A stretch of 64,000 nucleotides of DNA from Minisyncoccota bacterium (GTDB lineage Bacteria > Patescibacteriota > Minisyncoccia > Phycocordibacterales > SBAW01): contig DASZSF010000004.1 in the NCBI GenBank assembly GCA_035548815.1, forward strand, positions 57,261 to 121,260, written 5' to 3'. Shown here in pieces: positions 14,627-48,952 of the stretch; the first letter of the stretch is position 1, and each line of letters starts with the position of its first letter. The notes beneath the pieces were generated by a model that saw only the letters and a list, made by a program, of their open reading frames with translations, was not told the origin of the DNA and searched no databases. Position numbers and translations under genes: made by a program.

Positions 14627-14634
14627 ACGCGATA

Positions 14635-16570
<1,936 letters not shown>

Positions 16571-19336: not shown

Positions 19337-19338
19337 GT

Positions 19339-22743: not shown

Positions 22744-23591
22744 AACGCACGACGGCACCGAACAAAAAAACTCCCAAGACCTTGCGCAACCTCGTCATCG
22801 GGTCAGAAGGATTCCTCGGCAGCACGTTGTGCAGTTTTTTGGAAGGCAAAGGCGAGTCCGTAACGCGTTTTGACATCAAACGGTCCAAAAAAGAAGATGC
22901 TCGCACGGCGAACTTGCACCTGGAAAAATTCGACCGGGTATATTTTCTTGCGTGGGAGGTAGGAGGCTCCAAGTACCTCTACCGCCACGACACCCAGCTC
23001 CAGCAGCTCAACTGGAACATCGACCTGCTGCAAAATGTCATGAAGCAGTTGCAGAAGCACGAGACACCCTTCGTATTTGTCTCAAGCCAGCTCGCCGACG
23101 AGACCGACACCATTTACGGCGCGCTCAAAAAGGTCGGCGAACTGTGGACCGCGCAGATAGACGGTGCATGCGTCCGCTTGTGGAATATCTATGGGTCGCA
23201 GGAAACGCTCGACGAAAAAAGCCACGTCATAAGCGACTTCGTGCACCAGGCCGTGTATAAAAAGACCATTGCCATGATGACGACGGGCGAAGAGCGGCGG
23301 CAGTTCACGCATGTGCTCGACGTATGCGAAGCGCTGCACCTCATCTTGGAGCAGAAGCTCCATGGCGCTGTCTACGACCTGACTACGTTTGAATGGATAA
23401 CGATACGCGAAGTAGCCGACATCATTGCCTTCCATGCCAGCGCGCGCGTGGTGCCAGGCACAATGCGGGGTGTGGACCGGGCATACGCTACTATCAAAGG
23501 CCGCCCGCCCGGATGGGCGCCGCGCATACGACTCGAAGAGGGACTGAAAGGTCTGATAGAAAATATCAGACAAAAAAAGCGCATATCATGA
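22740..23591 (+). CDS. NAD-dependent epimerase/dehydratase family protein (short SDR)
   Basis: 283 aa; VIGSEGFLGSTL Rossmann; start overlaps the upstream stop (ATGA). Confidence 0.75.
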   Translation: MKRTTAPNKKTPKTLRNLVIGSEGFLGSTLCSFLEGKGESVTRFDIKRSKKEDARTANLHLEKFDRVYFLAWEVGGSKYLYRHDTQLQQLNWNIDLLQNVMKQLQKHETPFVFVSSQLADETDTIYGALKKVGELWTAQIDGACVRLWNIYGSQETLDEKSHVISDFVHQAVYKKTIAMMTTGEERRQFTHVLDVCEALHLILEQKLHGAVYDLTTFEWITIREVADIIAFHASARVVPGTMRGVDRAYATIKGRPPGWAPRIRLEEGLKGLIENIRQKKRIS

Positions 23592-25600
23592 CGCTACAAA
23601 GGCAGCGACGTATCCCAAACATACTTCTCATCGGCGCAGGCCGATTTGGAGAAATACATTTGCAAAAGTTACTAGCCCTTCAAAAAGAAGGCCTGCTCTC
23701 TTTGCTTGGCGTTGTGGTCGCTTCATCTGCTACCCGCGACAGGATACAAAAAACATACGGCGTGCAGGTGTGGACTGAACTGAGCGACGCAGTGCTCGCG
23801 CACACAGATGCGGTCGACATTGTGACTCCTCCGGAAACACATGCGGAACTTGCCCTGCGATGTCTGCAATATGCTGATGTATTGATCGAAAAACCGCTTG
23901 CAACGAACCTTGCGGATGCCCGAGCCATGGAAGCATGCGCGAAAAAATACAAACGTGTCCTTATGGTCGGATATATCTTCCGATTTGACCCGATGCTCAT
24001 AAAGCTCAAAAAATTACTCTCCCCTTTCCCGCGAGGGAACGTACACATACGCGGAGAATTTATCAACCCTCGCACGCACGATGACGGGCGGGACCCGGTG
24101 CTTGAAATGTCTCATCCCCTCGACAGTATTCGCTTCGTCAGCAGGCTTGGCGCTCCAACTCTCGTTACGCATGTCCCACATGCCCGCACCTCGACGCTTG
24201 AGATACAGTACGCGCCTACGATACATGCCACAGTGAACATGGGTTGGGAGGGCGAGGCCAAGCGGCGGACTCTCACCTACACGTTCGACACCAAAGAGAT
24301 CCATGCCGACTTTATGGGAAGAACAATTGAGATCAAAGATCGATTCAAAAATATCACAAAAAACATCCGGATTCCGCACACTGCTAATGATCCTCTAACA
24401 GAAGAGATCGTGCGGTTTCTTGACGTGATACGAGGTAAAAAAGTTTCCTATCCTACCGCCGCAGACGGTGTCGGTATACTCGAACTCAAGGAACAAGCAG
24501 TACCGACATCTTCAAACAAAAAACGTCCTCGCGTTGCCATCATTGGAGCCGGCATATTCGGCACGAACTGCGCTATTGAGCTGGCGAAATTCTGCGATGT
24601 CGTACTTATAGAAAGGAATGAGGACATCTTGCAGGAGGCCTCATTCGTCAACCAGTACCGCCACCATTGGGGATACCACTATCCGCGCAGCAGTGAGACG
24701 GTGCGCGATATTGCGGTTGCGCTTCCCACATTTGAGACCAGGTACGAAAAAGCTATCATACGCAACTTTCCTACATACTATGCGATTGCGAAATCAGGCT
24801 CTCGTGTAACTCCCCGAGAGTACCTTGATTTTTGTCGAGCACATGGGCTCGCATTCACGAAAGAATTCCCAGACCCTGAGTTCCTCAATAGAAACAAAGT
24901 ATCGCTTTCTTTAAAGACCCTTGAGCCGATATATAATTACGACATACTAGTAGACATAACCAAAAAGCTCTTAGGCCGGAATTCTATCGAGATACGACTC
25001 TCGACCGCAGTACAAGGCGGCCGGATCAAAAAAAATGGTGCTAAGGAACTCTCGTTAAAAAGCAGGAAGGGGGTCTATAAAGAACCTTTTGATTATGTGA
25101 TCAATGCAACCTATGCTCAATACAACCAGCTGGCTCACTGGTTCAACTTCCCGATCAAGCCAATACGTATCGATCTGGTGGAAGCCCTTATCGTACAGTT
25201 GCCGCTGCCCCGAATCTCGCTTGCAGTGATGGACGGTCCGTTTACCAATCTTGTACCAACCTCCACAGACGGCTTGTTTACTCTCGTACACATCCGCGAG
25301 TCGATATTGGAACGGTACGTACCCCGTACAGGGCTTCCTAATGTCAGCAGAAAGATACGGAAACGGAATGTGGCTCAAACTCTCAAAAAGAGCCGCGCGT
25401 GGTTTCCCATTCTGTCTCACGCTACCATACAGGAGGTCCGCTATACCCTACGGGCGGTCAACGCAGGACGCGAGAGGGACGATGGACGCCCGTCGGATGT
25501 TTCATACCATGGCTTTGGGATATGGTCGGTATTAGGAGGCAAAATAATCAACTCCGTTATTGCTGCACAGGAGATAGCGAACCAGATACGCAAGGATTGA
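23588..25600 (+). CDS. Two-domain oxidoreductase fusion: N-terminal Gfo/Idh/MocA NAD(P)-dependent oxidoreductase + C-terminal FAD-dependent oxidoreductase
   Basis: ILLIGAGRFGEIHLQKL...VDIVTPPETHAE...LIEKPLA (Gfo/Idh/MocA), then RVAIIGAGIFGTNCAIELAK... (FAD/NAD GxGxxG); start at ATG 23588 overlapping the upstream stop; the track's longer ORF begins inside the upstream gene. Confidence 0.7.
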   Translation: MTLQRQRRIPNILLIGAGRFGEIHLQKLLALQKEGLLSLLGVVVASSATRDRIQKTYGVQVWTELSDAVLAHTDAVDIVTPPETHAELALRCLQYADVLIEKPLATNLADARAMEACAKKYKRVLMVGYIFRFDPMLIKLKKLLSPFPRGNVHIRGEFINPRTHDDGRDPVLEMSHPLDSIRFVSRLGAPTLVTHVPHARTSTLEIQYAPTIHATVNMGWEGEAKRRTLTYTFDTKEIHADFMGRTIEIKDRFKNITKNIRIPHTANDPLTEEIVRFLDVIRGKKVSYPTAADGVGILELKEQAVPTSSNKKRPRVAIIGAGIFGTNCAIELAKFCDVVLIERNEDILQEASFVNQYRHHWGYHYPRSSETVRDIAVALPTFETRYEKAIIRNFPTYYAIAKSGSRVTPREYLDFCRAHGLAFTKEFPDPEFLNRNKVSLSLKTLEPIYNYDILVDITKKLLGRNSIEIRLSTAVQGGRIKKNGAKELSLKSRKGVYKEPFDYVINATYAQYNQLAHWFNFPIKPIRIDLVEALIVQLPLPRISLAVMDGPFTNLVPTSTDGLFTLVHIRESILERYVPRTGLPNVSRKIRKRNVAQTLKKSRAWFPILSHATIQEVRYTLRAVNAGRERDDGRPSDVSYHGFGIWSVLGGKIINSVIAAQEIANQIRKD

Positions 25601-25602
25601 AC

Positions 25603-26463
25603 ATGCAGAAATTTCAGCTCACTACTCCAATATTGCTCGTAGGGTTTACTCGTTTCGAAACGGCTCAAAATGTGTTCGATGAGATACGAAAGGCAAAACC
25701 TCGGCAATTTTTCCTGGCAGTAGACGGGCCGCGCGAGGGACGACTGGATGATATAGAACGTTGTAATAAAACTAAGCAAATCGCTGCACAGGTGGATTGG
25801 GAATGCGAGGTGCACACCCTCTTTCAGGAAAAGAACCTCGGTTGTGGCGTAGGCACGACGCGCGCGATTAATTGGATGTTCGAGCACGTAGAAGAAGGCA
25901 TCATTTTCGATGATGACTGCGTACCAGACCAGTCATTCTTCCGGTTTTGCCAAGAACTGCTGGAATACTACAAGGATGACCCCAGCGTGATGCACATTAG
26001 CGGCGACAACTTCCAAATGGGCAGGAAACGCGGCAATGCATCATATTATTTCTCGCGCTATACGCATAACTGGGGGTGGGCAACATGGAGGCGCGCGTGG
26101 AAGCACAATGATTTCGAAATGCTTCCTCCAGAATTACGCCGCCACATTTGGGACAAGCAGTGGCTCAAGTCAGTCGAGCGCATGGGGGGGTTGGCAATTT
26201 TGCCCAATGTAAACTTGATAACCAATATCGGTGATGGGCCGGGTGCCACGCACACAGAGGGTGACAGCCCCTTCCTTCGGCTTCCGGTCGCGCCTATGCC
26301 CTTTCCGCTGGTACACCCGGCACGCATCCAGAGGAACGCGCGCGCCGATTGGTACACCTACCGCACCATGTTCGGTGGCACGCTGTATGCATACCTGCTG
26401 CAGAAATTCCTGCGCACCATACCCGTGGGGGTGAAAACGAAAATTAAGAGTGTTGTAAGATAA
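25603..26463 (+). CDS. Putative nucleotide-diphospho-sugar glycosyltransferase (HlpA-like), function uncertain
   Basis: 286 aa; IIFDDDCVP (DxD-like), NWGWATWRRAW; start at ATG 25603. Confidence 0.4.
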   Translation: MQKFQLTTPILLVGFTRFETAQNVFDEIRKAKPRQFFLAVDGPREGRLDDIERCNKTKQIAAQVDWECEVHTLFQEKNLGCGVGTTRAINWMFEHVEEGIIFDDDCVPDQSFFRFCQELLEYYKDDPSVMHISGDNFQMGRKRGNASYYFSRYTHNWGWATWRRAWKHNDFEMLPPELRRHIWDKQWLKSVERMGGLAILPNVNLITNIGDGPGATHTEGDSPFLRLPVAPMPFPLVHPARIQRNARADWYTYRTMFGGTLYAYLLQKFLRTIPVGVKTKIKSVVR

Positions 26464-26467
26464 GGCA

Positions 26468-27391
26468 GTGCCAATCCAAAGCCCTATCACAGGTTCGGAC
26501 AATACGACGCTGGAACGCGAGATTCCTTCGCGCGAGATCATAGACGCGTACCAGAAAGAGCTCGGCATGGATGTTTCCCATTTTTTTGCGGGCATAGAAG
26601 CAGTGAGCGTCTATACATGCAGGGACACAGGCTACCGCTTTTACCACCCGCTTACCCTAGCGGGCGACGACGCGTTCTACCAGGAGGTCGAAAAGTTCCC
26701 CTGGTACTACATGGACTGGAAGTGGGAGCATGGCGTCGCGGACGGGTTGATACAAAAAGATGAGTCGGTGTTGGAGATTGGGTGCGCTCGGGGCAGCTTC
26801 CTTAAAAAACTGCGGGAGCGCGGCGTGCATGTTGAAGGGCTCGAGATGAACACCAAGGCGCTTGAGGAATGCCGCGCTGCCGGGCTTACTGTTCATCCCG
26901 ACTCTATAGAGGGGTTTTCTGCGAGTAAGAAGGGCATGTACGATGTCGTGTGCTCGTTCCAGGTGCTCGAGCATGTGCCGCATGTGCGCGAGTACCTTGA
27001 AGCATCGCTCGCGGTACTCAAGCCAGGCGGGCGCATGATAGTGAGCGTCCCCAACAACGATAGCCTCGTACTCTCTTCAGGCGGCCCTGATACCCTTAAC
27101 GCCCCGCCTCACCACATGGGGCTATGGGACCCCAATTCCCTTATCGCGCTCCAGAGATATTTCAATATGACTATTGAAGGTTTGTATCTGGAGCCTCTGC
27201 AGGAATACCACGCTGGATTCGCGAGCAAGATTGCCAGCGCCGCTATAGGAACAAAAGTAGCGGACAAGCTACCGCTCCCCCACGGCCTCGTAGCCAAGCT
27301 TGCCGGCCGCTTCGGCTACACCGCCGCCTCCGCCCTTGCCCCCCATATCGTTGGTCACAGTATGATTGCAGTATTTACAAAGAATGGATGA
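26468..27391 (+). CDS. Class I SAM-dependent methyltransferase
   Basis: 307 aa; VLEIGCARGSFLKKL motif I, FQVLEHVPH, LKPGGRMIVSVPN. Confidence 0.7.
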   Translation: MPIQSPITGSDNTTLEREIPSREIIDAYQKELGMDVSHFFAGIEAVSVYTCRDTGYRFYHPLTLAGDDAFYQEVEKFPWYYMDWKWEHGVADGLIQKDESVLEIGCARGSFLKKLRERGVHVEGLEMNTKALEECRAAGLTVHPDSIEGFSASKKGMYDVVCSFQVLEHVPHVREYLEASLAVLKPGGRMIVSVPNNDSLVLSSGGPDTLNAPPHHMGLWDPNSLIALQRYFNMTIEGLYLEPLQEYHAGFASKIASAAIGTKVADKLPLPHGLVAKLAGRFGYTAASALAPHIVGHSMIAVFTKNG

Positions 27392-29021
27392 CACGCGACA
27401 CATAAGTTTCGTCATACCCGCATACAACTGCGCAGATACGCTCGCAGAGGCTGTCGAGTCTATCTACAACGGCAATTTCGAAGACGGCGACGAGGTGATA
27501 GTGATCGATGACGCCTCGACCGACACTACACCAAAAGTCATTGAAGGACTGCGCATAGCTCACCCAGATCTTATGGTTCTCACTAATGAGCAAAACAAAG
27601 GCTGCCCCGCGACACGTAATGTTGGCATACATGCCGCACGCAACGGACTTATTTTTAACCTTGATGCCGACAATATACTCGCGCCCGGCAGCGTAGCAAA
27701 GCTTAAAACTGTTCTCACAGAAAAGAATGCCGACGTTGCTGCATTTAGCGAATACCATTACTTCAAAGGCAGTGATAAAAAAGTCACTCACAAATGGATC
27801 TACCCATACGACACGCTCACGCTCGCCGACCTTCTTGCAAGCCATATTAACCCCGGGCCCGGCGGCAACTTCCTCTATACCAAAGCAAGCTGGGAGAAGG
27901 TCGGCGGGTATTGGGAATATGGCAAAGGCTTGCACGAAGCATGGGGCTTTACTTTGAAACAGCTGGCTCACGGAGCGCGCATGGTCGTGCCTCCTCATTC
28001 GTACTATCTGCATCGCTATGGCGTCAATTCCTTATTTGACAGAGAATCGAAGGAACTGGAGAGAAGTTCACTCACGGCAACAAAGATGCTGGAGCCGTTC
28101 CTTGATCTTCTTGATACAGACGACGCTGCATACATACGAAGTGAAGAAGGATCACGAACATGGTTCGAGACCCTTCCCGTGCGACCCATACGCCTTGCAT
28201 CCCACACGCCAGGGAGGACTGGGTACAAAACGTCCCGCACATCCCGTATGCCGGGTTACACCATAGCGCGCAACATACTGCGGCGCGCAATGCCTCGCTC
28301 TCTTGTCCACTGGCTACGCGCACAGCGGCTGATGCGAGCGTACAGGAAGGACTTTTCGACGTTCAAGACACTCTCACAGGCACAGGGGCGCGGCGAGCCG
28401 CTGTGGGACGATCGCCGTCCGGAATTGTTCGACAATACCTCAACCACACCGTTTGACGCTCACTACATATATCACCCGGCCTGGGCTGCGCGTGTGCTGC
28501 ACAGGACCAACCCCTCCCTTCATATTGATATTTCTTCGACGCTGACTTTTTCCTCCATACTTTCCGCTTTTATACCCGTGCGGTTTTACGACTATCGCCC
28601 CGCGCCACTCAAGCTTTCCAATTTTGAATCACTACATGCGGACCTCACAGCACTGCCATTTCAAGACGGGAGCATTGCATCGCTTTCGTGCATGCACACC
28701 ATCGAACATATCGGGCTTGGCCGGTACGGCGACCCTCTGGACCCAAACGGAGACCGCACAGCAATAGCCGAGCTTATACGCGTACTCGCGCCAGGAGGCA
28801 ACCTTTTGTTTGTAACGCCCGTAGGAAAGCCGCGCGTACGCTTTAATGCTCATCGGATCTACTCATACCGGCAGATCATGGAATACTTTAACGGCCTGGA
28901 ACTAGTCGAATTTTCTCTCCTTCCGGACGACATCAGCCAGGGCATTGTAGAGAATGCGAGCCAGGCACAGAGCGACGCGCAAAACTACGGATGCGGTTGC
29001 TTTTGGTTTAGAAAGCGGTAA
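27384..29021 (+). CDS. Bifunctional GT2 glycosyltransferase (N-term) - SAM-dependent methyltransferase (C-term) fusion
   Basis: ISFVIPAYNCADTL...VIVIDDASTD (GT2); C-term ...LPFQDGSIASLSCMHTIEHIG...LAPGGNLLFVTP (Methyltransf_11-like); start at ATG 27384 overlapping the upstream gene by 8 nt. Confidence 0.75.
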   Translation: MDDTRHISFVIPAYNCADTLAEAVESIYNGNFEDGDEVIVIDDASTDTTPKVIEGLRIAHPDLMVLTNEQNKGCPATRNVGIHAARNGLIFNLDADNILAPGSVAKLKTVLTEKNADVAAFSEYHYFKGSDKKVTHKWIYPYDTLTLADLLASHINPGPGGNFLYTKASWEKVGGYWEYGKGLHEAWGFTLKQLAHGARMVVPPHSYYLHRYGVNSLFDRESKELERSSLTATKMLEPFLDLLDTDDAAYIRSEEGSRTWFETLPVRPIRLASHTPGRTGYKTSRTSRMPGYTIARNILRRAMPRSLVHWLRAQRLMRAYRKDFSTFKTLSQAQGRGEPLWDDRRPELFDNTSTTPFDAHYIYHPAWAARVLHRTNPSLHIDISSTLTFSSILSAFIPVRFYDYRPAPLKLSNFESLHADLTALPFQDGSIASLSCMHTIEHIGLGRYGDPLDPNGDRTAIAELIRVLAPGGNLLFVTPVGKPRVRFNAHRIYSYRQIMEYFNGLELVEFSLLPDDISQGIVENASQAQSDAQNYGCGCFWFRKR

Positions 29022-29033
29022 ACACCCACAAGA

Positions 29034-29831
29034 ATGATCACTACTAAACTACAAGGCGGGCTCGGGAACCAGCTGTTTCAGTACGCAGCTGGGCGCGCAT
29101 TAAGCGAGCGGCATAACACGGACCTTGTGCTCGACATCGAGTTTTACGGACGGCAGGAATTGCGGGCATATACGCTCGGCAAGTTCAGCATTTCTGCGCG
29201 CATAGCGTCACACAAAGAACCTGCGCGCGCCGACCGCCTTGTCGAAAAGGGATTCTCGTTCGATTCACGAGTGCCAGAGGCTGGCCCTGATACGTATCTG
29301 GAGGGCTACTGGCAAAGCGAGCGGTATTTCAAAGATATAGAATCTGTTATTCGCAGGGAGTTCGCGCTCAAAGATCCCGGCAACGGCGCGTTCAAGGAAG
29401 CGTTAGCCGAGTTGGGGCACGGGAATTCTGCCGTATCGCTTCACGTTCGCAGAACCGACTATCTCGCCCCCAAGCACCAGGGCATATACGCCCAGCTGAC
29501 TCCAGCATATTACCTGAACGCGCTGCAGATAATCGCAGAAAAAAATAAGGACCTCCGCGTCATCATATTTTCGGACGATGTGGCATGGGTGAAAGAAAAC
29601 CTGACCCTCCCTTTTCCAACACTCTACATGTCGGGGCGCGGATTTGTCGACTATGAGGAGCTTGTGCTCATGAGCGCATGCGCGCACCACATAACCGCGA
29701 ACAGCTCATTTTCCTGGTGGGGCGCATGGCTCAACCCACGCCGCGAAAAAATAGTGGTCACGCCAGAGCACTGGTTCGTGGACGGACGCGATGAGAGCGA
29801 CCTCATACCCCCATCATGGATACGACTCTAG
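29034..29831 (+). CDS. GT11-family alpha-1,2-fucosyltransferase
   Basis: 265 aa; GGLGNQLFQYAAG, SLHVRRTDY, ANSSFSWWGAWL, PEHWFV match H. pylori FutC motifs (GGLGNQMFQYAFA, FVHIRRGDY, ANSTYSWWAAYL, PKHWLF). Confidence 0.9.
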   Translation: MITTKLQGGLGNQLFQYAAGRALSERHNTDLVLDIEFYGRQELRAYTLGKFSISARIASHKEPARADRLVEKGFSFDSRVPEAGPDTYLEGYWQSERYFKDIESVIRREFALKDPGNGAFKEALAELGHGNSAVSLHVRRTDYLAPKHQGIYAQLTPAYYLNALQIIAEKNKDLRVIIFSDDVAWVKENLTLPFPTLYMSGRGFVDYEELVLMSACAHHITANSSFSWWGAWLNPRREKIVVTPEHWFVDGRDESDLIPPSWIRL

Positions 29832-30835
29832 CCCCCCCTCGCGTGACCGTACTTATGCCCGTGTACAATGGTGCGCGGTATCTGCGTGATGCCATGGACA
29901 GCATTCTAGCCCAGACCTATGCGGACTTCGAATTCCTGATAGTGGACGACGGCTCGACCGACGAAAGCGTGGAAATAATACGATCCTATACTGATCCTCG
30001 GATCCGACTGGAGCGAAACGGAATGAATCGAGGCCTGGTATACAGCTTGAACCGAGGCATCAGCCTGGCCCGGGGCGGATATGTGGCTCGCATGGACTGC
30101 GACGACATAAGCCTTCCGCAGAGGCTGGCCGAACAGGTGGCATATTTGGACAAACACCGGGACATCGCGGTATGCGGCACGTGGGTCAAGACGCTCGGAG
30201 AGAGAGCTGCTGCCTACGAATATTTCTTGGACCCGGAGGATATCAAAGCTTCGCTCCTATTCACTACGTCCCTCGCCCACCCTACTGTCATGCTCAGAAA
30301 GTCTTTGCTCAAGGAAGCGGGGCTCGAATACGACCCGGCGCATGCTCATGCGGAAGACTACGGGCTATGGGTATCTTTGGTCCATGCCGGATACAAGCTC
30401 GCGAACCTTCCTCTCGTGTCTCTTCTCTACAGGCGGCATGTGGCAAGCGTAAGCGCCGCTCATAGCAAAGCGCAAAAAGAAACAGCGTCCGGCATACGAA
30501 ATGCGCAGCTCGCTTGGCTCGGGATCGATGCGAGCGCGGAACATATGGAAATCCATAACGGCATCAAAGGCGGAGAAAACTTCGTGCGGGATGCGGAAGC
30601 ATGGCTTACTACGATTCTAAATGCCAACAAAACATCGCGCGTATACAGCCAGCTTTCGCTTGGGCGCGTGGTATACCGGCGCTGGCGGACCATCTGCGGA
30701 GCGAATGCGGGCAGCGGGCTTATGACATGGCGCATGTTCATACGCTCTCCTCTTTCTCATCTTGCAGGCAGGCGTGAACGATACCTCGACAGCGCGAAGT
30801 TTTTTATTAAAGGGCTGCTAGCGCGGCCAGGATAG
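29816..30835 (+). CDS. GT2 family glycosyltransferase
   Basis: 339 aa; VTVLMPVYNGARYL...FLIVDDGSTD...DCDD. Confidence 0.85.
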   Translation: MDTTLAPPRVTVLMPVYNGARYLRDAMDSILAQTYADFEFLIVDDGSTDESVEIIRSYTDPRIRLERNGMNRGLVYSLNRGISLARGGYVARMDCDDISLPQRLAEQVAYLDKHRDIAVCGTWVKTLGERAAAYEYFLDPEDIKASLLFTTSLAHPTVMLRKSLLKEAGLEYDPAHAHAEDYGLWVSLVHAGYKLANLPLVSLLYRRHVASVSAAHSKAQKETASGIRNAQLAWLGIDASAEHMEIHNGIKGGENFVRDAEAWLTTILNANKTSRVYSQLSLGRVVYRRWRTICGANAGSGLMTWRMFIRSPLSHLAGRRERYLDSAKFFIKGLLARPG

Positions 30836-31913
30836 TCTTGGCCCGCGCGTCCCAGGTAGAAGCCTCGGCTTTCGAGCGCGCCGCGTGCGCGAGCGCCTCG
30901 GCATGCGCGCGCTCTTTACGCACACGCTCGATAGCATGCGCGAGCGCTCTCGCGTCGTCGGGCACGAACGCGGTTGCGCAGTCCTGCAGCACCTCGCGCA
31001 TGACGGGCAGATCAGAATAGATGATCGGCTTCCCGCTCGCCATATATTCGTATGCCTTCATGGGGAAGCCGTAGTCGCGGAAATGCGGCTGGTCGGGGTA
31101 CGGAATCGCGAGCGCATCCACAGCCTGCTCGTAGGCAGGAACATGCTCTGTGGGCACGAGAGGCACAAATATGCACCGGTCTTCCACGCCCTCTTTCTCT
31201 GCATACGCGCGATACTCCTCTATCTCCCCCGCCCGCCCGCCTACGAACACCATCTTCATCGTTCGATCATCGCTATGGCGCAGGGCTTTGATCATGACTT
31301 CGAGCCCTTTGCTCATGCCAAGGGTCTTGTAGAGGCCCACGTACCCGACCAAAAAGCCCTCCGGAAGCCCCAATTCCTGCCGCAGTGCAGTTGTATTTTT
31401 TGACGCACTATAGGGGGCAAGGTCCACCCCTCCGTAGGCTACGACGACGCGTCCAGCATCGACGCCGGTTGCGGCGACAAGCTGGTTCTTGAGATGGCGC
31501 GTCGTCGCAACCAAGCAGTCGCTTCCCTCTGCCACCGCCCTGTCGCGCCAGTCGCCAAAAAGCATATGCCAATCCGACGCGATGCGGAACGACGCGCCCA
31601 GCACCCGCCGCCAAAACATAAGGAGCACGAGGAGGTTGGGGTCGTTCGCAAAGTACACCGTGTCCTTGCCCGCCCCGTATGTGCGTATGAGGCCGGGCAG
31701 CTTAAAGAAGTACTGTAGTCGCACGCCACGCCGCACGCGCAGATGTACGTTTTCGTGAGGAATACCGGCAAGCGCGTTTTCCGCAGCCTCCGCCACCACA
31801 AGCGTAAAGGCGCCCGGCAGCAAACGAGCGAACGCGTCCGCCATTTTCTCGACAAAAAAATGGTCAGCGGTGGAAGCCGGATATGTCTTTGCCGTCACAT
31901 AGACGAGCTTCAT
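30807..31913 (-). CDS. GT4 family glycosyltransferase
   Basis: 368 aa; C-terminal Glycos_transf_1 region ...FPMKAYEYMASGKPII... Confidence 0.85.
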   Translation of the reverse strand: MKLVYVTAKTYPASTADHFFVEKMADAFARLLPGAFTLVVAEAAENALAGIPHENVHLRVRRGVRLQYFFKLPGLIRTYGAGKDTVYFANDPNLLVLLMFWRRVLGASFRIASDWHMLFGDWRDRAVAEGSDCLVATTRHLKNQLVAATGVDAGRVVVAYGGVDLAPYSASKNTTALRQELGLPEGFLVGYVGLYKTLGMSKGLEVMIKALRHSDDRTMKMVFVGGRAGEIEEYRAYAEKEGVEDRCIFVPLVPTEHVPAYEQAVDALAIPYPDQPHFRDYGFPMKAYEYMASGKPIIYSDLPVMREVLQDCATAFVPDDARALAHAIERVRKERAHAEALAHAARSKAEASTWDARAKTILAALAAL

Positions 31914-32093
31914 GGTTGGACTATAATAGCACGGTGATTGAAAAATTTAAAAAGCTTGTGCATGCCCCACGTCTCCTGTGCAACAGATTTGGATATTGCG
32001 TGCGCCGGTATCGGATGCCGCAATCGAGCGTATCCTCAAATAGGACAGTACTGTGACCGTATTCACGAATATTCATTTCCTTAGGAAAGGAAT

Positions 32094-32939
32094 TTATCGT
32101 TCAGGCCGAGCAACATACGTATCATATCGCCCAATGAACGAAGCGAAGTTTTCGCGCGTGCATTCTTCCCCTCCTAATGTAAAAAGACTGTACTTATGCT
32201 GTTGGAGCCAAACAAGAATATCATCACGCGTATGCGGGTACACCACAAGATTCTTTGGCTCTATTTCCAAAAACAAAACGGGGCGGACGTTCTCTAAGAA
32301 TTCCGTAGCGCCTTCAAGTATCCACAACTCCGACCCTTCGGTGTCGAGCTTCATCACATCAACACGTGGCTTGCCGGCACGCTTCCACCACAGGTCAAAC
32401 GTGATCATTTGGACATCGACGGGAATAGGTTCGCCTGCCCTGCCGGTATCGAAAAATCCGTCGCCTGAAGAATCCGGCGAGAAATGGGTTATGAATTGAA
32501 CCATCCCTTCTTTATTGCCAAGCGCCTGCGGAGAGAGCGTGATTCTGTGCGACAATGCATTCTTCTGTATCGTCATAGCAAAATACCGATGTTGTTGAGG
32601 TCCTGGTTCGAACGCATATATGCACGTGCCTGGTGCATGTGAAGCGACATACAAGCTTATGAGGCCAATATTCGCCCCGACATCAAGAAAGACAGCGCCT
32701 GACGGAGGAAGTTCGGAGGTAATGGCCTTGCACATTTTCTCTTCAAAAATCCGGGACGGCCGGATTTTTTTGATAAGGATATCGCCCGCCCCGTACCACA
32801 AATCATACCCGCAATACGGAATATGACAGAGCGCGGAACCGCCGTTCATAATCCTGTCTTTAACAATAGCCTGGTAGTGCCGCAGAAAGTTCCACACACG
32901 CTTCGGAGTCATCTTTTTTACTGATGATTTTAACGTCAT
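32094..32939 (-). CDS. FkbM-family methyltransferase
   Basis: 281 aa; FLDVGANIG...YAFEP...MKLDTEGSE are Methyltransf_21 hallmarks. Confidence 0.85.
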   Translation of the reverse strand: MTLKSSVKKMTPKRVWNFLRHYQAIVKDRIMNGGSALCHIPYCGYDLWYGAGDILIKKIRPSRIFEEKMCKAITSELPPSGAVFLDVGANIGLISLYVASHAPGTCIYAFEPGPQQHRYFAMTIQKNALSHRITLSPQALGNKEGMVQFITHFSPDSSGDGFFDTGRAGEPIPVDVQMITFDLWWKRAGKPRVDVMKLDTEGSELWILEGATEFLENVRPVLFLEIEPKNLVVYPHTRDDILVWLQQHKYSLFTLGGEECTRENFASFIGRYDTYVARPER

Positions 32940-33580
32940 ACGCGGGCGACTGTCGCGGTCACTATATAGCCTAGCGCATAATCGCTCCTTTGGTAACGCT
33001 TGGATGAGGCCCTACTTAATGCAGCAAAAGACATATCGAGCAGCCGGACGACGTGACGGCTGATCGTGTAATTGAAGTACCGCAATGGAATCGGCAGCAG
33101 ACGATCTATCATAAGGAGCCGAGCAGCAAATACACCGCTTCCCAGTGCCTCTACTTTTATCTCTGTGCAGCCGACAAGCGTAAGTTCTCGTTCAAGCGCC
33201 GTAGCGCTGAATCTATGGAAATCCTGGGGCGAGGGGTGATACGGGAATAGAAACGGGACGAGAATGGTAAGAGTCCCTCCAGGACGAACCACCCTACACG
33301 CCTCCTTCAAAAAAGCATGGTACCCAAATATGTGTTCGAGCACATTCATCAAAAGCGCGTGGTCATACGAAGCATCATTCAAAGGCAAAGGAAGCTCAAG
33401 GTCATGAAGAAGGTCTGGGCACGCTTGTTTGCTCACGTTAACAGTATAGAAGGTGTGGTCTCCCCCCAAAAGCCTCTGATAATGCGAACCTCTCTCCCCA
33501 CCCAAATCAAGCACCGACCCATTTAGCACTTGTTCCGAAAGAATTCGCTCTTCCTCAATCCTAAGCAGTGAAGGAATCAT
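32936..33580 (-). CDS. Class I SAM-dependent methyltransferase
   Basis: 214 aa; VLDLGGERGSHY, LLMNVLEHI, VRPGGTLTILVP. Confidence 0.7.
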   Translation of the reverse strand: MIPSLLRIEEERILSEQVLNGSVLDLGGERGSHYQRLLGGDHTFYTVNVSKQACPDLLHDLELPLPLNDASYDHALLMNVLEHIFGYHAFLKEACRVVRPGGTLTILVPFLFPYHPSPQDFHRFSATALERELTLVGCTEIKVEALGSGVFAARLLMIDRLLPIPLRYFNYTISRHVVRLLDMSFAALSRASSKRYQRSDYALGYIVTATVARV

Positions 33581-34644
33581 AAGTGTTTAGGGGTTGGCTT
33601 GTAACGGTTGAAAAACACCGCCATGCGCCTTGCCACATGTTCCGCATCACATTGTTCAACTGCATATGCCCGGGCCTGGGCGCCCAGACGCGCACGCAAC
33701 TCATCATCCTCGAGAAGGCGCCTGATTGCTGAACGCAATTCGGGCACGCTCTTTTGAGCTACCAGTATACCTGTTTCCCCGCTGCGTATGTATGACTCCA
33801 TGGCAAACGTCTTGCTCGCGATAACCGCCTTTCCCATTGCCATCGCCTCCACAAGCGTTGAAATACCCATGGAGTCATTAGTCCCTCCGGCAGTGTTCAA
33901 AGGCAGTACCACTATCTTTGAGGCAGCATACTCATCCAACAATTCCTCTTCGGAAAGCCGACGGACTTCGACATTGGAAGGCAGCGCGCGGGGAAAACGT
34001 TTCACTCTGTGAGATCTTGTGACCAAAAGGCGTACCGGCAAGCCTTCTAGGGCGGCAAACAATGTGGGATAGTCCCGTCCCGGATCCAACCCCACGCTTA
34101 GAATTTGATTTTTTTCTTGAACATCTCGAGGCCTAAAATACTCCGTATCAGTTCCGTACGGTATATACTCTATCTTTCCCCGCAACATCGGAAATCGCAG
34201 TTCCAGGCGGTTTTTTTCTTCTTCACTTATCGTCACTATCCCGGAACTATGTCGAATGATAAACGAAAGGAGTTTCTGCCGCCACGTTGCGAGATCACCT
34301 AAAAACCCGGTGAGGCTATAGTCGTACAGCACCCACTTTGGCTTTGTAACGCCAAATAGTATCCATAATAACTGGGATGAAAACGAATTCACATGAAAGA
34401 CTACATCATTCGAGAAAAAAGCAGGGAACAGCGGCAGGTGAGAAAGGTACACGCGTAATATATGGTGCCTCAGCCACGAAGCGACGGCGCGCGGCATGTA
34501 GTGTTCCAGCTCTACGTACGCTGTGTTTATTCCATACTTCCGAAGGCGGAGGAGACCATAAAATTGATTGTCACTTAATTCCCCTCGGGCAACACGCTCA
34601 AGTTTGTCACCCCTATATGCTGAATACAAGTAAAGCAGTTTCAT
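33577..34644 (-). CDS. GT4 family glycosyltransferase
   Basis: 355 aa; Glycos_transf_1-like C-terminal half (...GISTLVEAMAMGKAVIAS...). Confidence 0.8.
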   Translation of the reverse strand: MKLLYLYSAYRGDKLERVARGELSDNQFYGLLRLRKYGINTAYVELEHYMPRAVASWLRHHILRVYLSHLPLFPAFFSNDVVFHVNSFSSQLLWILFGVTKPKWVLYDYSLTGFLGDLATWRQKLLSFIIRHSSGIVTISEEEKNRLELRFPMLRGKIEYIPYGTDTEYFRPRDVQEKNQILSVGLDPGRDYPTLFAALEGLPVRLLVTRSHRVKRFPRALPSNVEVRRLSEEELLDEYAASKIVVLPLNTAGGTNDSMGISTLVEAMAMGKAVIASKTFAMESYIRSGETGILVAQKSVPELRSAIRRLLEDDELRARLGAQARAYAVEQCDAEHVARRMAVFFNRYKPTPKHL

Positions 34645-35684
34645 GCCAGAGTAGGATTCATCTCGCGCACAAAGCGTCTCGCCAGATTATTGAGCGAATG
34701 ATATGACGCGAACACACGTTCCTGTTTGATATTTTTTGTCCTCGTATCCGCATCCATTTCCAGAGCATGTGAAAGTTTTTTTGCAATTTCTGCAGGCCCA
34801 TACGATTGAATAACGAGCGGCTGCTCAAGGTAACCGGCCGCGTCCTTATTGGCGGTGACAACTATGCACTCGCATGCTGCTGCTTCCAGTATCGTCTTGT
34901 CGAACATTCCTTGAGGACTCACATTTACAAATATTTCATGCGCGTTATAGATCTCCGGCGCTTTGTCGTTTGCGATGCCTGAAAAAAACGATACATATTC
35001 GACTAGCCCTAATTCCTGCACGCGAGCATACAGCTTTTTTTCGTACTCTGCGTCAGCAGGAAGCACACTACCATAGATCGATGCAGTAAACTCAACTTTC
35101 TCTTTTTTCAAAATGTCGAAAGCCTCGATAAGCAGGTGAATATTTTTTGAAGGTGAAATTCTGCCGAGTGAAAGAATGGAGCGAGCCTTTCGCTCTATAG
35201 CGGGCATACGAATAAATTTTTCGAGCGGAACGCCCACAGGCATACACACCGCATTGCTAAACTTTGCTGTATAGGAACTATTCGAAGTGTAAAAAACTTT
35301 TTTGCAAAACCATGCAGCGATATCTGTAAGGAGTGAGCCGGCATAATGGTTCCGCCAGAGGTATACGCGCTTGCCTAAAAGCTTCCACAGCCATCCGCCC
35401 AAGAGCACATATTCCTGATTCATATGCACGAACACTGCATCATATTCATTTCGTTTCTGCCATATGCGCGCAAAAAACTTCCATGCATACGAAAGCCGCG
35501 ATGGCTTGGACTCTTTACCAAGCGATACGACTTCTATATTTTGCGGGAATGTATTTCTTCCTTTTTTGAGACATAGCACAGTCGCCTGTTCTGCATGCGC
35601 AGCAATAGTCTCGACCCACGAATGGTATACGCTCAGCGTCGGGTCATCTAAATCTATAGCTTGTGTAATGATGAGAAGTTTCAT
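34641..35684 (-). CDS. GT4 family glycosyltransferase
   Basis: 347 aa; ...SLGRISPSKNIHLLIEAF...EIFVNVS...LEAAACECIVV... Confidence 0.8.
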   Translation of the reverse strand: MKLLIITQAIDLDDPTLSVYHSWVETIAAHAEQATVLCLKKGRNTFPQNIEVVSLGKESKPSRLSYAWKFFARIWQKRNEYDAVFVHMNQEYVLLGGWLWKLLGKRVYLWRNHYAGSLLTDIAAWFCKKVFYTSNSSYTAKFSNAVCMPVGVPLEKFIRMPAIERKARSILSLGRISPSKNIHLLIEAFDILKKEKVEFTASIYGSVLPADAEYEKKLYARVQELGLVEYVSFFSGIANDKAPEIYNAHEIFVNVSPQGMFDKTILEAAACECIVVTANKDAAGYLEQPLVIQSYGPAEIAKKLSHALEMDADTRTKNIKQERVFASYHSLNNLARRFVREMNPTLA

Positions 35685-35688
35685 GTTT

Positions 35689-36573
35689 TTAGAGCGTATC
35701 TCGCCATTGGCGTTTCCATTCTTCGCGTGTTGGCATCGTAAGTTTCAACTCCCCTTTCGTACCTTCTGCAAACACGTCTTTCAAGGCATGAGCAAGCTCT
35801 ATATGTGGCACCACTACCGCTCCCGCCTGGCGTGCAATGCCGACGTCGGGGGCCACAACAGGCACGCCTGCAGCCAAGGCTTCAATAATACTTGCCCCAA
35901 AACTTTCCTGCCATGATGTGCAAAGTACTGCGTCAGCCTTTTCAAGATATGGGAGCGGGTCGACCCAGCCTGGGAACTCTACATGTACTCCCACCGCCCC
36001 TCGTTCAAGCTCTTCTTTCATGCGACCATCGCCGAGCATGATTAACCGCACATCAGGTATAGTACGAGCTACCTCTTTAAAAATACTAAGCGCGGCACGT
36101 GGATTCTTTTCATGCTCAAAGCGCCCGATCCAAAGCACAGTTTTGCCTTCGTGCGAAATCCGATGCACAGATCTGAATTTTTCTAGTTCGACGAATATTG
36201 GAAGCACGTGGACATCAGGGACACCCAAAAGTTCGGCTTGTGTCTTTAGTTTGTTCGATACGACCCGCACAGAATCTGCGCGACGAAGTACGTATCCCGC
36301 GATCATCCGTTTGATAAACGACTGATTGGCGAGATCTGCATGGAGTTGCGCAGAGAATCGCACCTTCGCCTTGCGTGCGGCACGCAAGGCTGCAAGTCCG
36401 CGCCAAAACGGGTCTTGCACTGTGACAACGTCAAATCTCCGCGCGTCGGGAATGCGCGCCGCTCCTTTGCCCCAATACACGACCTGCAACTCATCAACAG
36501 CTTCTCGCTGCAATTCAAAACGTGCGTTGCCCGGACCAAAACGTTTATCGCCGGTTATCGTGAGTACTTTCAT
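35689..36573 (-). CDS. GT4 family glycosyltransferase (short)
   Basis: 294 aa; ...WIGRFEHEKNP...FPGWV...SWQESFGASIIEALAAGVPVV... Confidence 0.8.
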   Translation of the reverse strand: MKVLTITGDKRFGPGNARFELQREAVDELQVVYWGKGAARIPDARRFDVVTVQDPFWRGLAALRAARKAKVRFSAQLHADLANQSFIKRMIAGYVLRRADSVRVVSNKLKTQAELLGVPDVHVLPIFVELEKFRSVHRISHEGKTVLWIGRFEHEKNPRAALSIFKEVARTIPDVRLIMLGDGRMKEELERGAVGVHVEFPGWVDPLPYLEKADAVLCTSWQESFGASIIEALAAGVPVVAPDVGIARQAGAVVVPHIELAHALKDVFAEGTKGELKLTMPTREEWKRQWRDTL

Positions 36574-37646: not shown

Positions 37647-37664
37647 GAATAAATCGTATCGCCT

Positions 37665-48869: not shown

Positions 48870-48952
48870 TGGGCATGGGGAGACTCGAACTCCCAATCCT
48901 TACGGAACACGCTTCTGAGACGTGCGCGTATACCAAATTCCGCCACATGCCC
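48870..48952 (-). tRNA. tRNA-Leu (anticodon CAG), type II long-variable-arm tRNA, CCA not encoded
   Basis: GGGCATGTGGCGGAATTTGGTATACGCGCACGTCTCAGAAGCGTGTTCCGTAAGGATTGGGAGTTCGAGTCTCCCCATGCCCA folds as a cloverleaf with 7-bp acceptor, 3-bp D stem, anticodon loop CUCAGAA. Confidence 0.9.

What the first reader, a model, noticed from the sequence alone, without database searches (positions are those of the whole stretch)
26468..33580. Four methyltransferases including a GT2-MTase fusion: candidate chain-terminating/capping module
The cluster holds four methyltransferases:
- SAM-MTase at 26468-27391
- GT2-MTase fusion at 27384-29021
- FkbM-family MTase at 32094-32939
- SAM-MTase at 32936-33580
In ABC-transporter-dependent glycan pathways the non-reducing-end methyl (or phospho-methyl) cap sets chain length and is required for Wzt recognition (E. 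coli O8/O9a WbdD, Geobacillus WsaE). A GT fused to an MTase is exactly the WsaE logic, although here the domain order is reversed. FkbM-type enzymes O-methylate deoxyhexoses such as fucose or rhamnose in other systems.
Basis: inference. Interest (0 to 1): 0.55.

Follow-up and report, generated by a model that had tools for sequence, protein, structure and literature searches.

The report
Methyltransferase-rich capped surface-glycan locus (CPR bacterium)
Four real sugar-methylating enzyme genes, one fused to a glycosyltransferase, sit in a surface-glycan export locus of a tiny uncultured (Paceibacterota) bacterium whose exporter has a cap-reading domain, so a methyl cap is likely, but four enzymes are more than one cap needs.

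Summary
All four ORFs are SAM-methyltransferase genes at the stated coordinates, above Pfam cut-offs. The GT2–MTase fusion is one 545-aa ORF, recovered identically from two assemblies, with about 44 full-length homologues.

For it:
- Protein names place the window in Candidatus Paceibacterota (CPR), and the locus is ABC-transporter-dependent (Wzm/Wzt).
- Wzt carries a C-terminal carbohydrate-binding domain. Its profile aligns to Aquifex Wzt, whose CBD binds a 3-O-methyl sugar cap. 33 of 41 close homologues hit Pfam Wzt_C.
- No kinase or Kdo-type terminator is present.
- In 5 of 6 loci sampled through Wzt homologues, an MTase gene (FkbM ×4, DUF268 ×1) directly follows wzt, the position of wbdD and wsaE.

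Against it:
- No MTase resembles WbdD by sequence, and no coiled-coil ruler was found.
- Relatives carry up to 8 MTase domains, often fused to GTs. This points to extensive O-methylation, not one four-enzyme capping module.

The fused MTase belongs to uncharacterised DUF268. It has no solved relative. It lies next to GT11 fucosyltransferase homologues in many bacterial and archaeal loci.

Best reading: an add-and-methylate terminator plus further decorating MTases. Interest is moderate.

The parts
12317..14671 (-). 784-aa Wzy_C (O-antigen-ligase-like) domain fused to TPR repeats; candidate extracytoplasmic glycan transferase (WsaB+WsaA-like)
   Evidence: Pfam Wzy_C E=2.4e-16 plus several TPR families. 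Homologues flank wzm-wzt in many Patescibacteria loci. WsaB/WsaA roles are described in PMC2943079.
14635..16570 (-). Fcl-like epimerase/reductase (14635-15600) and GDP-mannose 4,6-dehydratase Gmd (15566-16570): GDP-L-fucose supply
   Evidence: Pfam GDP_Man_Dehyd E=1e-138 and Epimerase E=4.5e-54.
16655..17473 (+). Wzm, ABC-2 permease
   Evidence: Pfam ABC2_membrane E=2.7e-17.
17477..20370 (+). 619-aa polytopic membrane protein (weak DUF2142 hit) and GT2-GtrA fusion, inserted between wzm and wzt; probably an extracytoplasmic side-branch glycosylation pair (inferred)
   Evidence: Pfam hits. The same insertion is present in locus L088.
20375..21646 (+). Wzt, 423 aa: nucleotide-binding domain plus C-terminal carbohydrate-binding domain (about residues 265-420, window about 21167-21634)
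   Evidence: ABC_tran E=1e-23. 33 of 41 full-length homologues hit Pfam Wzt_C. The profile aligns to Aquifex Wzt 8dku_A residues 31-357, E=3.4e-90. The AF2 model aligns over 413 columns with 8dku_A, E=1.2e-38. The C-terminal region is all-beta with pLDDT about 80-94.
21661..22743 (+). GT10-family (alpha-1,3/4-fucosyltransferase family) glycosyltransferase
   Evidence: Pfam Glyco_transf_10 E=5.2e-14.
22740..26463 (+). Short-chain epimerase/reductase (22740-23591), Gfo/Idh/MocA+DAO fused oxidoreductase (about 23591-25600) and an unassigned 286-aa protein (25603-26463)
   Evidence: Pfam hits. The 286-aa protein has no significant Pfam, NCBIfam or PDB hit, but it is conserved upstream of MT1 homologues.
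26468..27391 (+). MT1: class I SAM methyltransferase (Methyltransf_23) with an about 90-aa N-terminal extension, translationally coupled to the fusion gene
   Evidence: Pfam E=2.6e-20. 8-nt overlap with the next gene. Full-length homologues (37-56% identity) lie directly upstream of the GT2(-DUF268) gene in L003, L033, L052, L075, L082, L083 and L084.
27384..29021 (+). GT2-DUF268 fusion, 545 aa: GT-A glycosyltransferase (residues about 1-260), basic helices (290-333), DUF268-type SAM-MTase domain (about 355-545)
   Evidence: Pfam. AF2 pLDDT 90.6. Foldseek top hits for the GT part are GT2 enzymes RmlT, TarS and WrtF. About 44 full-length homologues.
29034..29831 (+). GT11-family (alpha-1,2-fucosyltransferase family) glycosyltransferase
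   Evidence: Pfam Glyco_transf_11 E=2.1e-27. N-terminal GGLGNQLFQYA motif. A GT11 homologue lies within 10 kb of the DUF268 MTase in 52 of 80 loci, within 1.5 kb on the same strand in 38, and within 100 bp in 21.
29816..30835 (+). GT2 glycosyltransferase that commonly follows GT11 in related loci
   Evidence: Pfam E=1.9e-34. Homologues at 35% identity or more in 37 of 80 loci.
30807..31913 (-). GT4 glycosyltransferase, last gene of the minus-strand operon
   Evidence: Pfam Glycos_transf_1 E=1.8e-18.
32094..32939 (-). FkbM-family methyltransferase
   Evidence: Pfam Methyltransf_21 E=1.4e-17. TIGR01444 90.5 bits. Weak V_cholerae_RfbT hit, E=0.0059. FkbM genes directly follow wzt in L085, L086, L087 and L088.
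32936..33580 (-). MT4: small class I SAM methyltransferase (Methyltransf_11)
   Evidence: Pfam E=3.5e-9. 4-nt overlap with the FkbM ORF start.
33577..38777 (-). Five consecutive GT4 glycosyltransferase genes
   Evidence: Pfam hits.
58593..59966 (-). Bac_transf polyprenyl-phosphate sugar-1-phosphate transferase; candidate initiating enzyme (inferred, about 20 kb from the locus)
   Evidence: Pfam Bac_transf E=1e-49.

Best explanation
The four genes encode glycan O-methyltransferases. They belong to a fucose-based, ABC-transporter-dependent surface-glycan pathway of a Paceibacterota (CPR) bacterium.

**Proposed pathway**
1. The glycan is built on a polyprenyl carrier at the cytoplasmic face by the GT4, GT2, GT10 and GT11 enzymes, using GDP-fucose from Gmd/Fcl (inferred).
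2. Growth stops when a terminal sugar is added and O-methylated. This blocks the acceptor hydroxyl and creates the epitope read by the CBD of Wzt.
3. Wzm/Wzt then export the chain.
4. The Wzy_C-TPR protein transfers it to its acceptor outside the membrane (inferred).

**Candidate terminator**
The most likely terminator is the add-and-methylate unit formed by the GT2-DUF268 fusion, together with its coupled partner MT1 and the adjacent GT11. The FkbM enzyme is the alternative capper.

**The other MTases**
The remaining MTases add further methyl groups, either to the same terminal sugar or to internal residues. Each probably works with a neighbouring GT.

**Shown versus inferred**
- Shown: gene identities, the Wzt CBD, the fusion, and the synteny.
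- Inferred: the substrate sugars, which MTase makes the cap, and chain-length control.
For: - **MTase identities:**
- **Host:** source names on the identical proteins P0001 and P0121.
- **Wzt CBD:**
  - 33 of 41 homologues hit Wzt_C.
  - The profile aligns to Aquifex Wzt through its CBD, E=3.4e-90.
  - The Wzt model aligns to 8dku_A over 413 columns.
- **What the CBD implies:**
  - The Aquifex CBD binds a 3-O-methyl-Man/Rha cap and not the unmethylated sugar (PMC9445017).
  - All terminated systems have a Wzt CBM (PMC11231755).
- **No other terminator:** no kinase or Kdo genes among the cluster ORFs.
- **MTase directly after wzt:**
  - 5 of 6 loci sampled via Wzt homologues.
  - About 8 of the DUF268 loci, with 18 within about 1.2 kb.
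  - This matches the wzm-wzt-wsaE arrangement (PMC2943079).
- **Rosetta-stone fusions tying these MTases to glycosyltransfer:**
  - GT2-DUF268.
  - GT2-DUF268-GT2 followed by wzm-wzt.
  - The same GT2 orthogroup fused to FkbM: P0048, P0069, P0114.
  - GT2-FkbM-DUF268, DUF268-GT9 and DUF268-Fringe-like.
  - GT10-Methyltransf_24.
- **DUF268-GT11 adjacency** across phyla and in methanogens.
- **Translational coupling** of MT1 to the fusion gene.
Against: - No glycan structure exists for any of these organisms. Terminal and internal methylation cannot be told apart from sequence.
- No MTase is detectably related to WbdD beyond the generic fold.
- No coiled-coil ruler was found.
- In this window the gene after wzt is GT10, not an MTase. 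FkbM and MT4 lie in a separate convergent GT4 operon.
- The CBD pocket residues that hold the methyl group in Aquifex are not conserved here. Thr346, Ala348 and His350 align to Ala, Ala and Asp. CBD specificity is therefore unknown.
- Terminal methylation need not gate export. V. cholerae O1 makes its O-PS with or without the RfbT methyl group, as serotypes Ogawa and Inaba (PMC9929944).
- Four to eight MTases per locus exceed what a cap requires.
Confidence: 0.55

Rival explanations
1. Decoration only. The MTases O-methylate internal residues of the repeat unit, giving a hydrophobic, heavily methylated fucose-rich glycan. None of them is the chain terminator. The Wzt CBD reads some other terminal feature, or the polymer itself.
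For: - There are four MTases here and up to eight MTase domains in relatives.
- MTases are paired or fused with several different GT families.
- FkbM and MT4 are embedded among GT4 genes, away from wzt.
- No coiled-coil ruler was found.
- RfbT-type terminal methylation is dispensable for O-PS production in V. cholerae.
Against: - A CBD-bearing Wzt predicts a dedicated terminal signal.
- No alternative terminator is encoded: no kinase, no Kdo or other unique-sugar transferase pathway.
- The conserved wzt-MTase adjacency, 5 of 6 loci, is the classic terminator position.
Confidence: 0.25
2. All four MTases form one dedicated capping module that makes a multiply O-methylated terminal sugar. An example from my own knowledge is the 2,3,4-tri-O-methyl-fucose cap of Rhizobium etli CE3. 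This cap would set chain length.
For: - Single polypeptides combine GT2, FkbM and DUF268 (P0343, P0327).
- Tandem FkbM genes follow wzt in L088. This shows that several MTases can act at one site.
- The GDP-fucose pathway and two fucosyltransferase-family GTs are present.
Against: - The four genes are split between two convergent operons.
- MTase number and type vary widely between close relatives, while Wzt stays 55-63% identical.
- There is no evidence on methylation positions.
Confidence: 0.12
3. Nucleotide-sugar-level methylation. At least MT1 methylates an NDP/GDP-sugar intermediate (C- or O-methylation of a 4-keto-6-deoxy sugar) before transfer, as TcaB9 does. It would not act on the polymer end.
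For: - MT1's PDB sequence matches include the sugar 3-C-methyltransferase TcaB9, E=5.6e-7.
- Gmd supplies a 4-keto-6-deoxy intermediate, and extra oxidoreductases are encoded upstream.
Against: - The matches cover only the generic SAM-binding core, residues 93-201.
- UbiG-type O-MTases score better.
- At 307 aa MT1 is about 110 residues shorter than the 416-residue TcaB9 chain. From my knowledge of TcaB9, it lacks that enzyme's C-terminal domain and the cysteines of the N-terminal zinc ribbon.
- MT1 is translationally coupled to a GT-MTase gene.
Confidence: 0.06
4. The MTases are unrelated to the glycan. They would be small-molecule, protein or nucleic-acid methyltransferases that merely sit in the locus.
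For: MT1 and MT4 give only generic class I MTase hits, such as UbiG, MetW and MenG, all far below the equivalog cut-offs.
Against: - One MTase is covalently fused to a GT.
- Three of the four overlap their neighbouring glycan genes.
- Homologues keep the same neighbours across phyla.
Confidence: 0.02

Closest known systems
Geobacillus stearothermophilus NRS 2004/3a S-layer glycan system (Wzm/Wzt, WsaE methyl-rhamnosyltransferase, WsaB, WsaA)
   Same: - It is an ABC-transporter-dependent glycan in a bacterium without LPS.
- One polypeptide combines MTase and GT activities.
- The MTase gene lies next to wzm-wzt in relatives.
- A Wzy_C-type transferase and a TPR protein are present, fused here into one 784-aa protein.
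- Wzt is predicted to recognise the methylated chain end (PMC2943079).
   Different: - The domain order is reversed (GT then MTase), and there is one GT2 domain instead of two rhamnosyltransferase domains. An 849-aa relative has GT2-MTase-GT2.
- The MTase domain is DUF268-type.
- The sugar supply is GDP-fucose, not dTDP-rhamnose; no rml genes were found among the ORFs scanned.
- Sequence homology to WsaE could not be tested.
E. coli O8/O9a (K. pneumoniae O5/O3) WbdD terminator with the CBM-bearing Wzt
   Same: - A CBD-bearing Wzt.
- Methyl-type cap logic.
- A terminator gene positioned after wzt in relatives.
   Different: - No sequence match to WbdD structures.
- No kinase domain.
- No coiled-coil ruler.
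- Four MTases instead of one.
Aquifex aeolicus WzmWzt and its 3-O-methyl-mannose/rhamnose-capped O antigen
   Same: - It is the closest solved Wzt: 33% identity over NBD plus CBD, Foldseek E=1.2e-38, profile E=3.4e-90.
- A simple O-methyl cap is read by the CBD.
   Different: - The methyl-pocket residues are not conserved.
- The sugar chemistry here is fucose-based.
- The host is a CPR bacterium rather than a Gram-negative with LPS.
Vibrio cholerae O1 RfbT/WbeT (Ogawa terminal methylation)
   Same: - A stand-alone MTase methylates the terminal sugar of an O-PS.
- The FkbM-type ORF here gives a weak RfbT-family hit, E=0.0059.
   Different: - The hit is below the Pfam cut-off.
- V. cholerae makes its O-PS with or without the methyl group (Ogawa and Inaba serotypes).
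- The sugar there is perosamine.
Pfam DUF268 (PF03269), Caenorhabditis proteins of unknown function
   Same: The C-terminal domain scores 55 bits against a cut-off of 25, and all 32 aligned relatives are hits. In C. elegans, DUF268 genes lie in clusters of putative glycosylation genes (PMC7614267).
   Different: No member has a demonstrated activity. The bacterial and archaeal proteins are cytoplasmic, and they are fused to or adjacent to GT2 and GT11 genes.

Membership tests
WbdD-type chain terminator (E. coli O8/O9a) | MTase (with or without kinase) catalytic domain homologous to WbdD | tested here: not met
   phmmer of all four proteins against all PDB sequences, which include WbdD structures, returned no WbdD chain at E<=0.01-0.1. 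No kinase domain appears in any cluster ORF.
WbdD-type chain terminator (E. coli O8/O9a) | Extended coiled-coil molecular ruler in the terminator protein | tested here: not met
   The AF2 model of the fusion has only a 29-residue helix (305-333) between its domains. A crude heptad screen of all 26 cluster proteins found no coiled coil of 35 aa or more, apart from GT4 C-terminal helices. The screen is crude, and MT1, FkbM and MT4 were not modelled.
WbdD-type chain terminator (E. coli O8/O9a) | Partner Wzt carries a C-terminal carbohydrate-binding module | tested here: met
WbdD-type chain terminator (E. coli O8/O9a) | Methyl or methyl-phosphate on the non-reducing terminal sugar, required for export and setting chain length | not testable with these tools
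   This needs the glycan structure and genetics.
WsaE-type multifunctional methyl-glycosyltransferase (G. stearothermophilus) | MTase and GT domains in one polypeptide within a wzm/wzt locus | tested here: met
   GT2 (residues 14-178) plus DUF268 MTase in one 545-aa ORF. The order is reversed relative to WsaE.
WsaE-type multifunctional methyl-glycosyltransferase (G. stearothermophilus) | Sequence homology to WsaE domains | not testable with these tools
   The WsaE sequence is not in the PDB and was not retrievable with the available tools.
WsaE-type multifunctional methyl-glycosyltransferase (G. stearothermophilus) | Rhamnan substrate (dTDP-L-rhamnose pathway in the locus) | tested here: not met
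   No rmlABCD-type genes were found among the ORFs scanned. Gmd/Fcl and GT10/GT11 point to fucose instead.
Pfam DUF268 (PF03269) | Score above the Pfam gathering cut-off | tested here: met
   55.0 bits against a cut-off of 25 for residues 295-545. 32 of 32 aligned relatives hit.
FkbM methyltransferase family (PF05050 / TIGR01444) | Score above the curated cut-offs, and the DVGANxG motif | tested here: met
   64.8 bits against 22.7, and 90.5 bits against 37.7. Motif FLDVGANIG.
Wzt_C carbohydrate-binding domain (PF14524) | C-terminal beta-sandwich domain homologous to Wzt CBDs | tested here: met
   The window protein itself gives no Pfam hit at E<=0.01. However, 33 of 41 homologues at 55-63% identity do. 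The family profile aligns to the Aquifex CBD up to residue 357. The AF2 model is all-beta over residues 265-420 and aligns with full-length 8dku_A.
GT11 alpha-1,2-fucosyltransferase family | Pfam Glyco_transf_11 above cut-off | tested here: met
   96.6 bits against a cut-off of 23.9. Donor and acceptor were not tested.

The most novel reading that the evidence does not exclude
DUF268 is a previously unrecognised family of glycan (probably fucose) O-methyltransferases shared by bacteria, archaea and nematodes. In ABC-transporter pathways it would work with a GT11 or GT2 partner as an add-and-methylate terminator that lacks a coiled-coil ruler. Its methyl-sugar product would be the epitope read by the Wzt CBD. 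CPR bacteria would use this to build a heavily methylated, fucose-rich coat on their surface proteins or wall.
Probability: 0.3. Interest if true: 0.75.

Novelty: new variant of a known kind. Interest (0 to 1): 0.52.

Why it matters
**Surface chemistry of CPR bacteria.** CPR/Patescibacteria are largely uncultured, and my searches of the paper library found nothing on their surface glycan chemistry. Their surface presumably mediates attachment to host cells. This locus, and the many related ones found here, predict a conserved, heavily O-methylated, fucose-containing glycan. It would be exported by a cap-gated ABC transporter and attached outside by a Wzy_C-TPR enzyme.

**A function for DUF268.** The analysis gives a concrete, testable function to an uncharacterised domain family. 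DUF268 has 1,456 cluster representatives at E<=1e-10. It recurs next to GT11 fucosyltransferase homologues from Geobacter to methanogens, and it takes its name from Caenorhabditis proteins.

**Breadth of the terminator repertoire.** If the fused enzyme is a terminator, known chain terminators extend beyond the coiled-coil WbdD/WbbB paradigm. Chain length would then have to be controlled some other way.

Tried and rejected
- **Sequence link to WbdD.** phmmer of the four MTases against the PDB gave only generic class I MTases: UbiG, TcaB9, CgnL and others. Membership was rejected.
- **CBD alone against the PDB.** No hit even at E<=10. The family profile and the structure model were needed instead.
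- **Profile of the DUF268 domain against the PDB.** The best hit was E=0.12, to generic MTases. No solved relative exists.
- **Coiled-coil ruler.** Negative by a crude heptad screen and in the AF2 model of the fusion.
- **GT-A(no Pfam)-MT1 fusion in L082.** I had guessed that the unassigned 286-aa ORF upstream of MT1 is a GT-A fold glycosyltransferase. The 595-aa L082 protein carries an MT1 homologue at residues 294-594, but its N-terminal half is not similar to the window's 286-aa ORF. That ORF stays unassigned.
- **Literature.**
  - No characterised DUF268 member was found.
  - No paper on CPR ABC-transporter glycans was found.
  - Nothing was retrievable on the Rhizobium etli methyl-fucose cap or on NoeI/FkbM. 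Those parallels rest on my own knowledge.
- **CBD specificity from Aquifex pocket residues.** The pocket is not conserved, so no inference is possible.
- **Longest ORF of the fusion.** The exact-protein look-up with the 551-aa TTG start failed. The ATG start at 27384 is the one on record.

Full report
**1.
ORF listing and Pfam/NCBIfam scans confirm four SAM-methyltransferase genes at the stated coordinates.

| Gene | Coordinates | Length | Best family hit |
|---|---|---|---|
| MT1 | 26468-27391 (+) | 307 aa | Methyltransf_23, E=2.6e-20 |
| GT2-MTase fusion | 27384-29021 (+) | 545 aa | Glycos_transf_2, E=2.8e-28, plus C-terminal DUF268/Methyltransf_11 |
| FkbM | 32094-32939 (-) | 281 aa | Methyltransf_21, E=1.4e-17; TIGR01444, 90.5 bits |
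| MT4 | 32936-33580 (-) | 214 aa | Methyltransf_11, E=3.5e-9 |

- SAM-binding motifs are visible in MT1, FkbM and MT4.
- The ATG of the fusion gene overlaps the MT1 stop codon (ATGGATGA).
- The fusion is genuine.
  - The same 545-aa product is called on two independent assemblies.
  - About 44 homologues share the architecture.
  - AlphaFold2 gives mean pLDDT 90.6. The model has a GT-A domain (about 1-260), basic helices (290-333) and a Rossmann-type MTase domain (about 355-545).

**2. Host and locus.**
- The identical proteins P0001 and P0121 are named by NCBI as coming from a Candidatus Paceibacterota MAG. Almost all close homologues are from Patescibacteria/CPR.
- The window also carries a 16S rRNA gene, SecA, MurB and MurC-like genes.
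- The locus runs from about 12.3 to 38.8 kb.

| Strand | Genes, in order |
|---|---|
| Minus (12.3-16.6 kb) | Wzy_C+TPR protein (784 aa), Fcl-like, Gmd |
| Plus (16.7-30.8 kb) | Wzm, 619-aa membrane protein, GT2-GtrA, Wzt, GT10, epimerase, Gfo/DAO oxidoreductase, unassigned 286-aa protein, MT1, GT2-DUF268, GT11, GT2 |
| Minus (30.8-38.8 kb, listed left to right) | GT4, FkbM, MT4, five GT4 |

- The five GT4 genes are preceded in the direction of transcription by a PKD protein and a TrwB-like ATPase.
- A Bac_transf initiating transferase lies at 58.6-60.0 kb.

**3. The transporter reads a cap.**
- Wzt most plausibly starts at 20375 (423 aa).
- Its C-terminal 150 residues give no Pfam hit on their own. 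However, 33 of 41 full-length homologues at 55-63% identity hit Wzt_C.
- The family profile aligns with Aquifex aeolicus Wzt (8dku_A) from residue 31 to 357, well into its CBD, at E=3.4e-90.
- The AF2 model is all-beta over residues 265-420. Foldseek aligns it over 413 columns with full-length Aquifex Wzt at E=1.2e-38.
- The Aquifex CBD binds 3-O-methyl-mannose but not mannose, and the Aquifex O antigen is capped by 3-O-methyl Man/Rha (PMC9445017).
- A review of Klebsiella systems states that every terminated O-PS system has a Wzt CBM, and that only terminated chains are exported (PMC11231755).
- The cluster has no kinase and no Kdo or other unique-sugar pathway. Methylation is therefore the evident cap chemistry.
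- The residues that hold the methyl group in Aquifex (Thr346, Ala348, His350) align to Ala, Ala and Asp here. Ligand specificity cannot be inferred.

**4. Position and partners of the MTases in relatives.**
- I sampled six loci through Wzt homologues only (56-58% identity). In five, an MTase gene begins at, or within 20 bp of, the wzt stop.
  - FkbM follows in L085, L086, L087 and L088.
  - DUF268 follows in a JGI contig.
- This is the position of wbdD in E. coli and of wsaE in Geobacillus, where wzm, wzt and wsaE overlap (PMC2943079).
- I then examined 80 genome loci retrieved through the DUF268 domain. They span Patescibacteria, Geobacteraceae, Acidobacteria, Bacteroidota, Planctomycetota and two methanogens.

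| Feature, relative to the DUF268 MTase gene | Loci (of 80) |
|---|---|
| Wzt homologue within 10 kb | 36 |
| ...of which long-form ORFs (390 aa or more) | 33 |
| GT11 homologue within 10 kb | 52 |
| GT11 within 1.5 kb, same strand | 38 |
| GT11 within 100 bp | 21 |

- The MTase ORF abuts wzt in about 8 loci and lies within about 1.2 kb in 18.
- MT1 homologues sit directly upstream of the GT2(-DUF268) gene in L003, L033, L052, L075, L082, L083 and L084.

**5. Fusions.**
- The N-terminal GT2 orthogroup occurs in four forms:
  - alone;
  - fused to DUF268;
  - fused to FkbM (P0048, P0069, P0114);
  - as GT2-DUF268-GT2 (849 aa), immediately followed by wzm-wzt.
- DUF268 also occurs in GT2-FkbM-DUF268, MT23-x-DUF268, TPR-DUF268-MT11, DUF268-GT9 and DUF268-Fringe-like proteins.
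- L088 encodes a GT10-Methyltransf_24 fusion and eight MTase domains in all.
- These fusions show that the MTases act in glycan assembly, and that several can act together.
- They also show that MTase number and type are very plastic between relatives whose Wzt is similar.

**6. What DUF268 is.**
- The domain scores 55 bits against a Pfam cut-off of 25.
- It has no solved relative by profile search; the best hit is E=0.12.
- It has 1,456 cluster representatives at E<=1e-10 among 1.84 billion proteins.
- I found no characterised member. In C. elegans, DUF268 genes lie in clusters of putative glycosylation genes (PMC7614267).
- Its motif I is unusual: an invariant H-x-D-I-S-S in place of the glycine-rich loop.

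**7. Comparison with known terminators.**
- No MTase matches WbdD in the PDB.
- There is no kinase domain.
- No coiled-coil ruler is seen in the AF2 model of the fusion or in a crude heptad screen of all cluster proteins.
- These proteins are therefore not members of the WbdD family.
- The logic resembles WsaE: MTase plus GT in one chain, a Wzt CBD, a Wzy_C-type transferase and TPR. The domain order, GT family, MTase family and sugar all differ. Homology to WsaE could not be tested.
- V. cholerae RfbT (weak hit, E=0.0059) is a reminder that a terminal methyl group need not control export.

**8. Verdict.**
- The four genes are glycan methyltransferases in a CBD-gated ABC-transporter pathway.
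- I consider it more likely than not (about 0.55-0.6) that at least one of them makes the terminal cap.
- The GT2-DUF268 fusion, with MT1 and GT11, is the best candidate for an add-and-methylate terminator. FkbM is the alternative.
- That all four form one capping and chain-length module is unlikely (about 0.1). The others probably add extra methyl groups.
- This is a new variant of a known kind of system. It is of moderate interest, mainly for the uncharacterised DUF268 family and for CPR surface biology.

Noticed in passing
window 12317-14671 (-): A 784-aa protein fuses a Wzy_C (O-antigen-ligase/O-OTase-like) domain to TPR repeats, next to MurB. Homologues of 730-830 aa flank wzm-wzt in many Patescibacteria loci (L021, L036, L042, L043, L045, L085, L086, L088, L089). 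It resembles Geobacillus WsaB plus WsaA in one chain. The acceptor in a CPR cell is unknown.
   Followed up: partly
window 17477-20370 (+); L088 4425-7309: wzm and wzt are separated by a 619-aa polytopic membrane protein (only a weak DUF2142 hit) and a GT2-GtrA fusion. The same insertion occurs in a Taylorbacteria locus. This looks like a polyprenyl-phosphate-sugar synthase/flippase plus GT-C-like pair for extracytoplasmic glycosylation.
   Followed up: partly
window 38800-42061 (-): A TrwB/VirD4-like coupling-protein ATPase (632 aa) and a PKD-domain protein head the minus-strand GT4/MTase operon. TrwB homologues (56-70% identity) also sit at the edge of the glycan locus in L013, L021, L033 and L045. 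The reason for this association is unexplained.
   Followed up: no
window about 23591-25600 (+); L052 231-2285: One ORF combines a Gfo/Idh/MocA NAD-oxidoreductase with an FAD-dependent (DAO) oxidoreductase. A Saccharibacteria locus has a homologue at 41% identity over the full length. Its role in sugar modification is unknown.
   Followed up: no
window 25603-26463 (+): A conserved 286-aa protein lies upstream of MT1. It has no significant Pfam, NCBIfam or PDB match, only a Glyco_tranf_2_3 hint at E=0.12. Homologues at 35-54% identity occur in several related loci.
   Followed up: partly
L047 (Methanoculleus chikugoensis) 2006-7632; L053 (Methanoregulaceae): Methanogenic archaea carry a DUF268 MTase 59-60% identical to the window domain. 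It lies next to a GT11 homologue, with Gmd/Fcl in L047 and a Wzt homologue in L053. This suggests cross-domain transfer of the MTase-GT11 module.
   Followed up: no
L088 9275-13323 and 16378-17061: A Taylorbacteria locus has three tandem FkbM genes after wzt, a GT10-Methyltransf_24 fusion, and eight MTase domains in total. This is an extreme case of MTase enrichment.
   Followed up: no
window 1-2000: The first 2 kb have markedly higher G+C (0.63, against about 0.52 elsewhere), with overlapping ORFs on the plus strand. There is no Rfam match there.
   Followed up: no
window 48870-51654 (-) and 58593-59966 (-): A complete 16S rRNA gene lies at 50193-51654, with two tRNAs nearby. A Bac_transf phosphoglycosyl transferase and an adjacent epimerase lie about 20 kb from the glycan locus.
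   Followed up: partly
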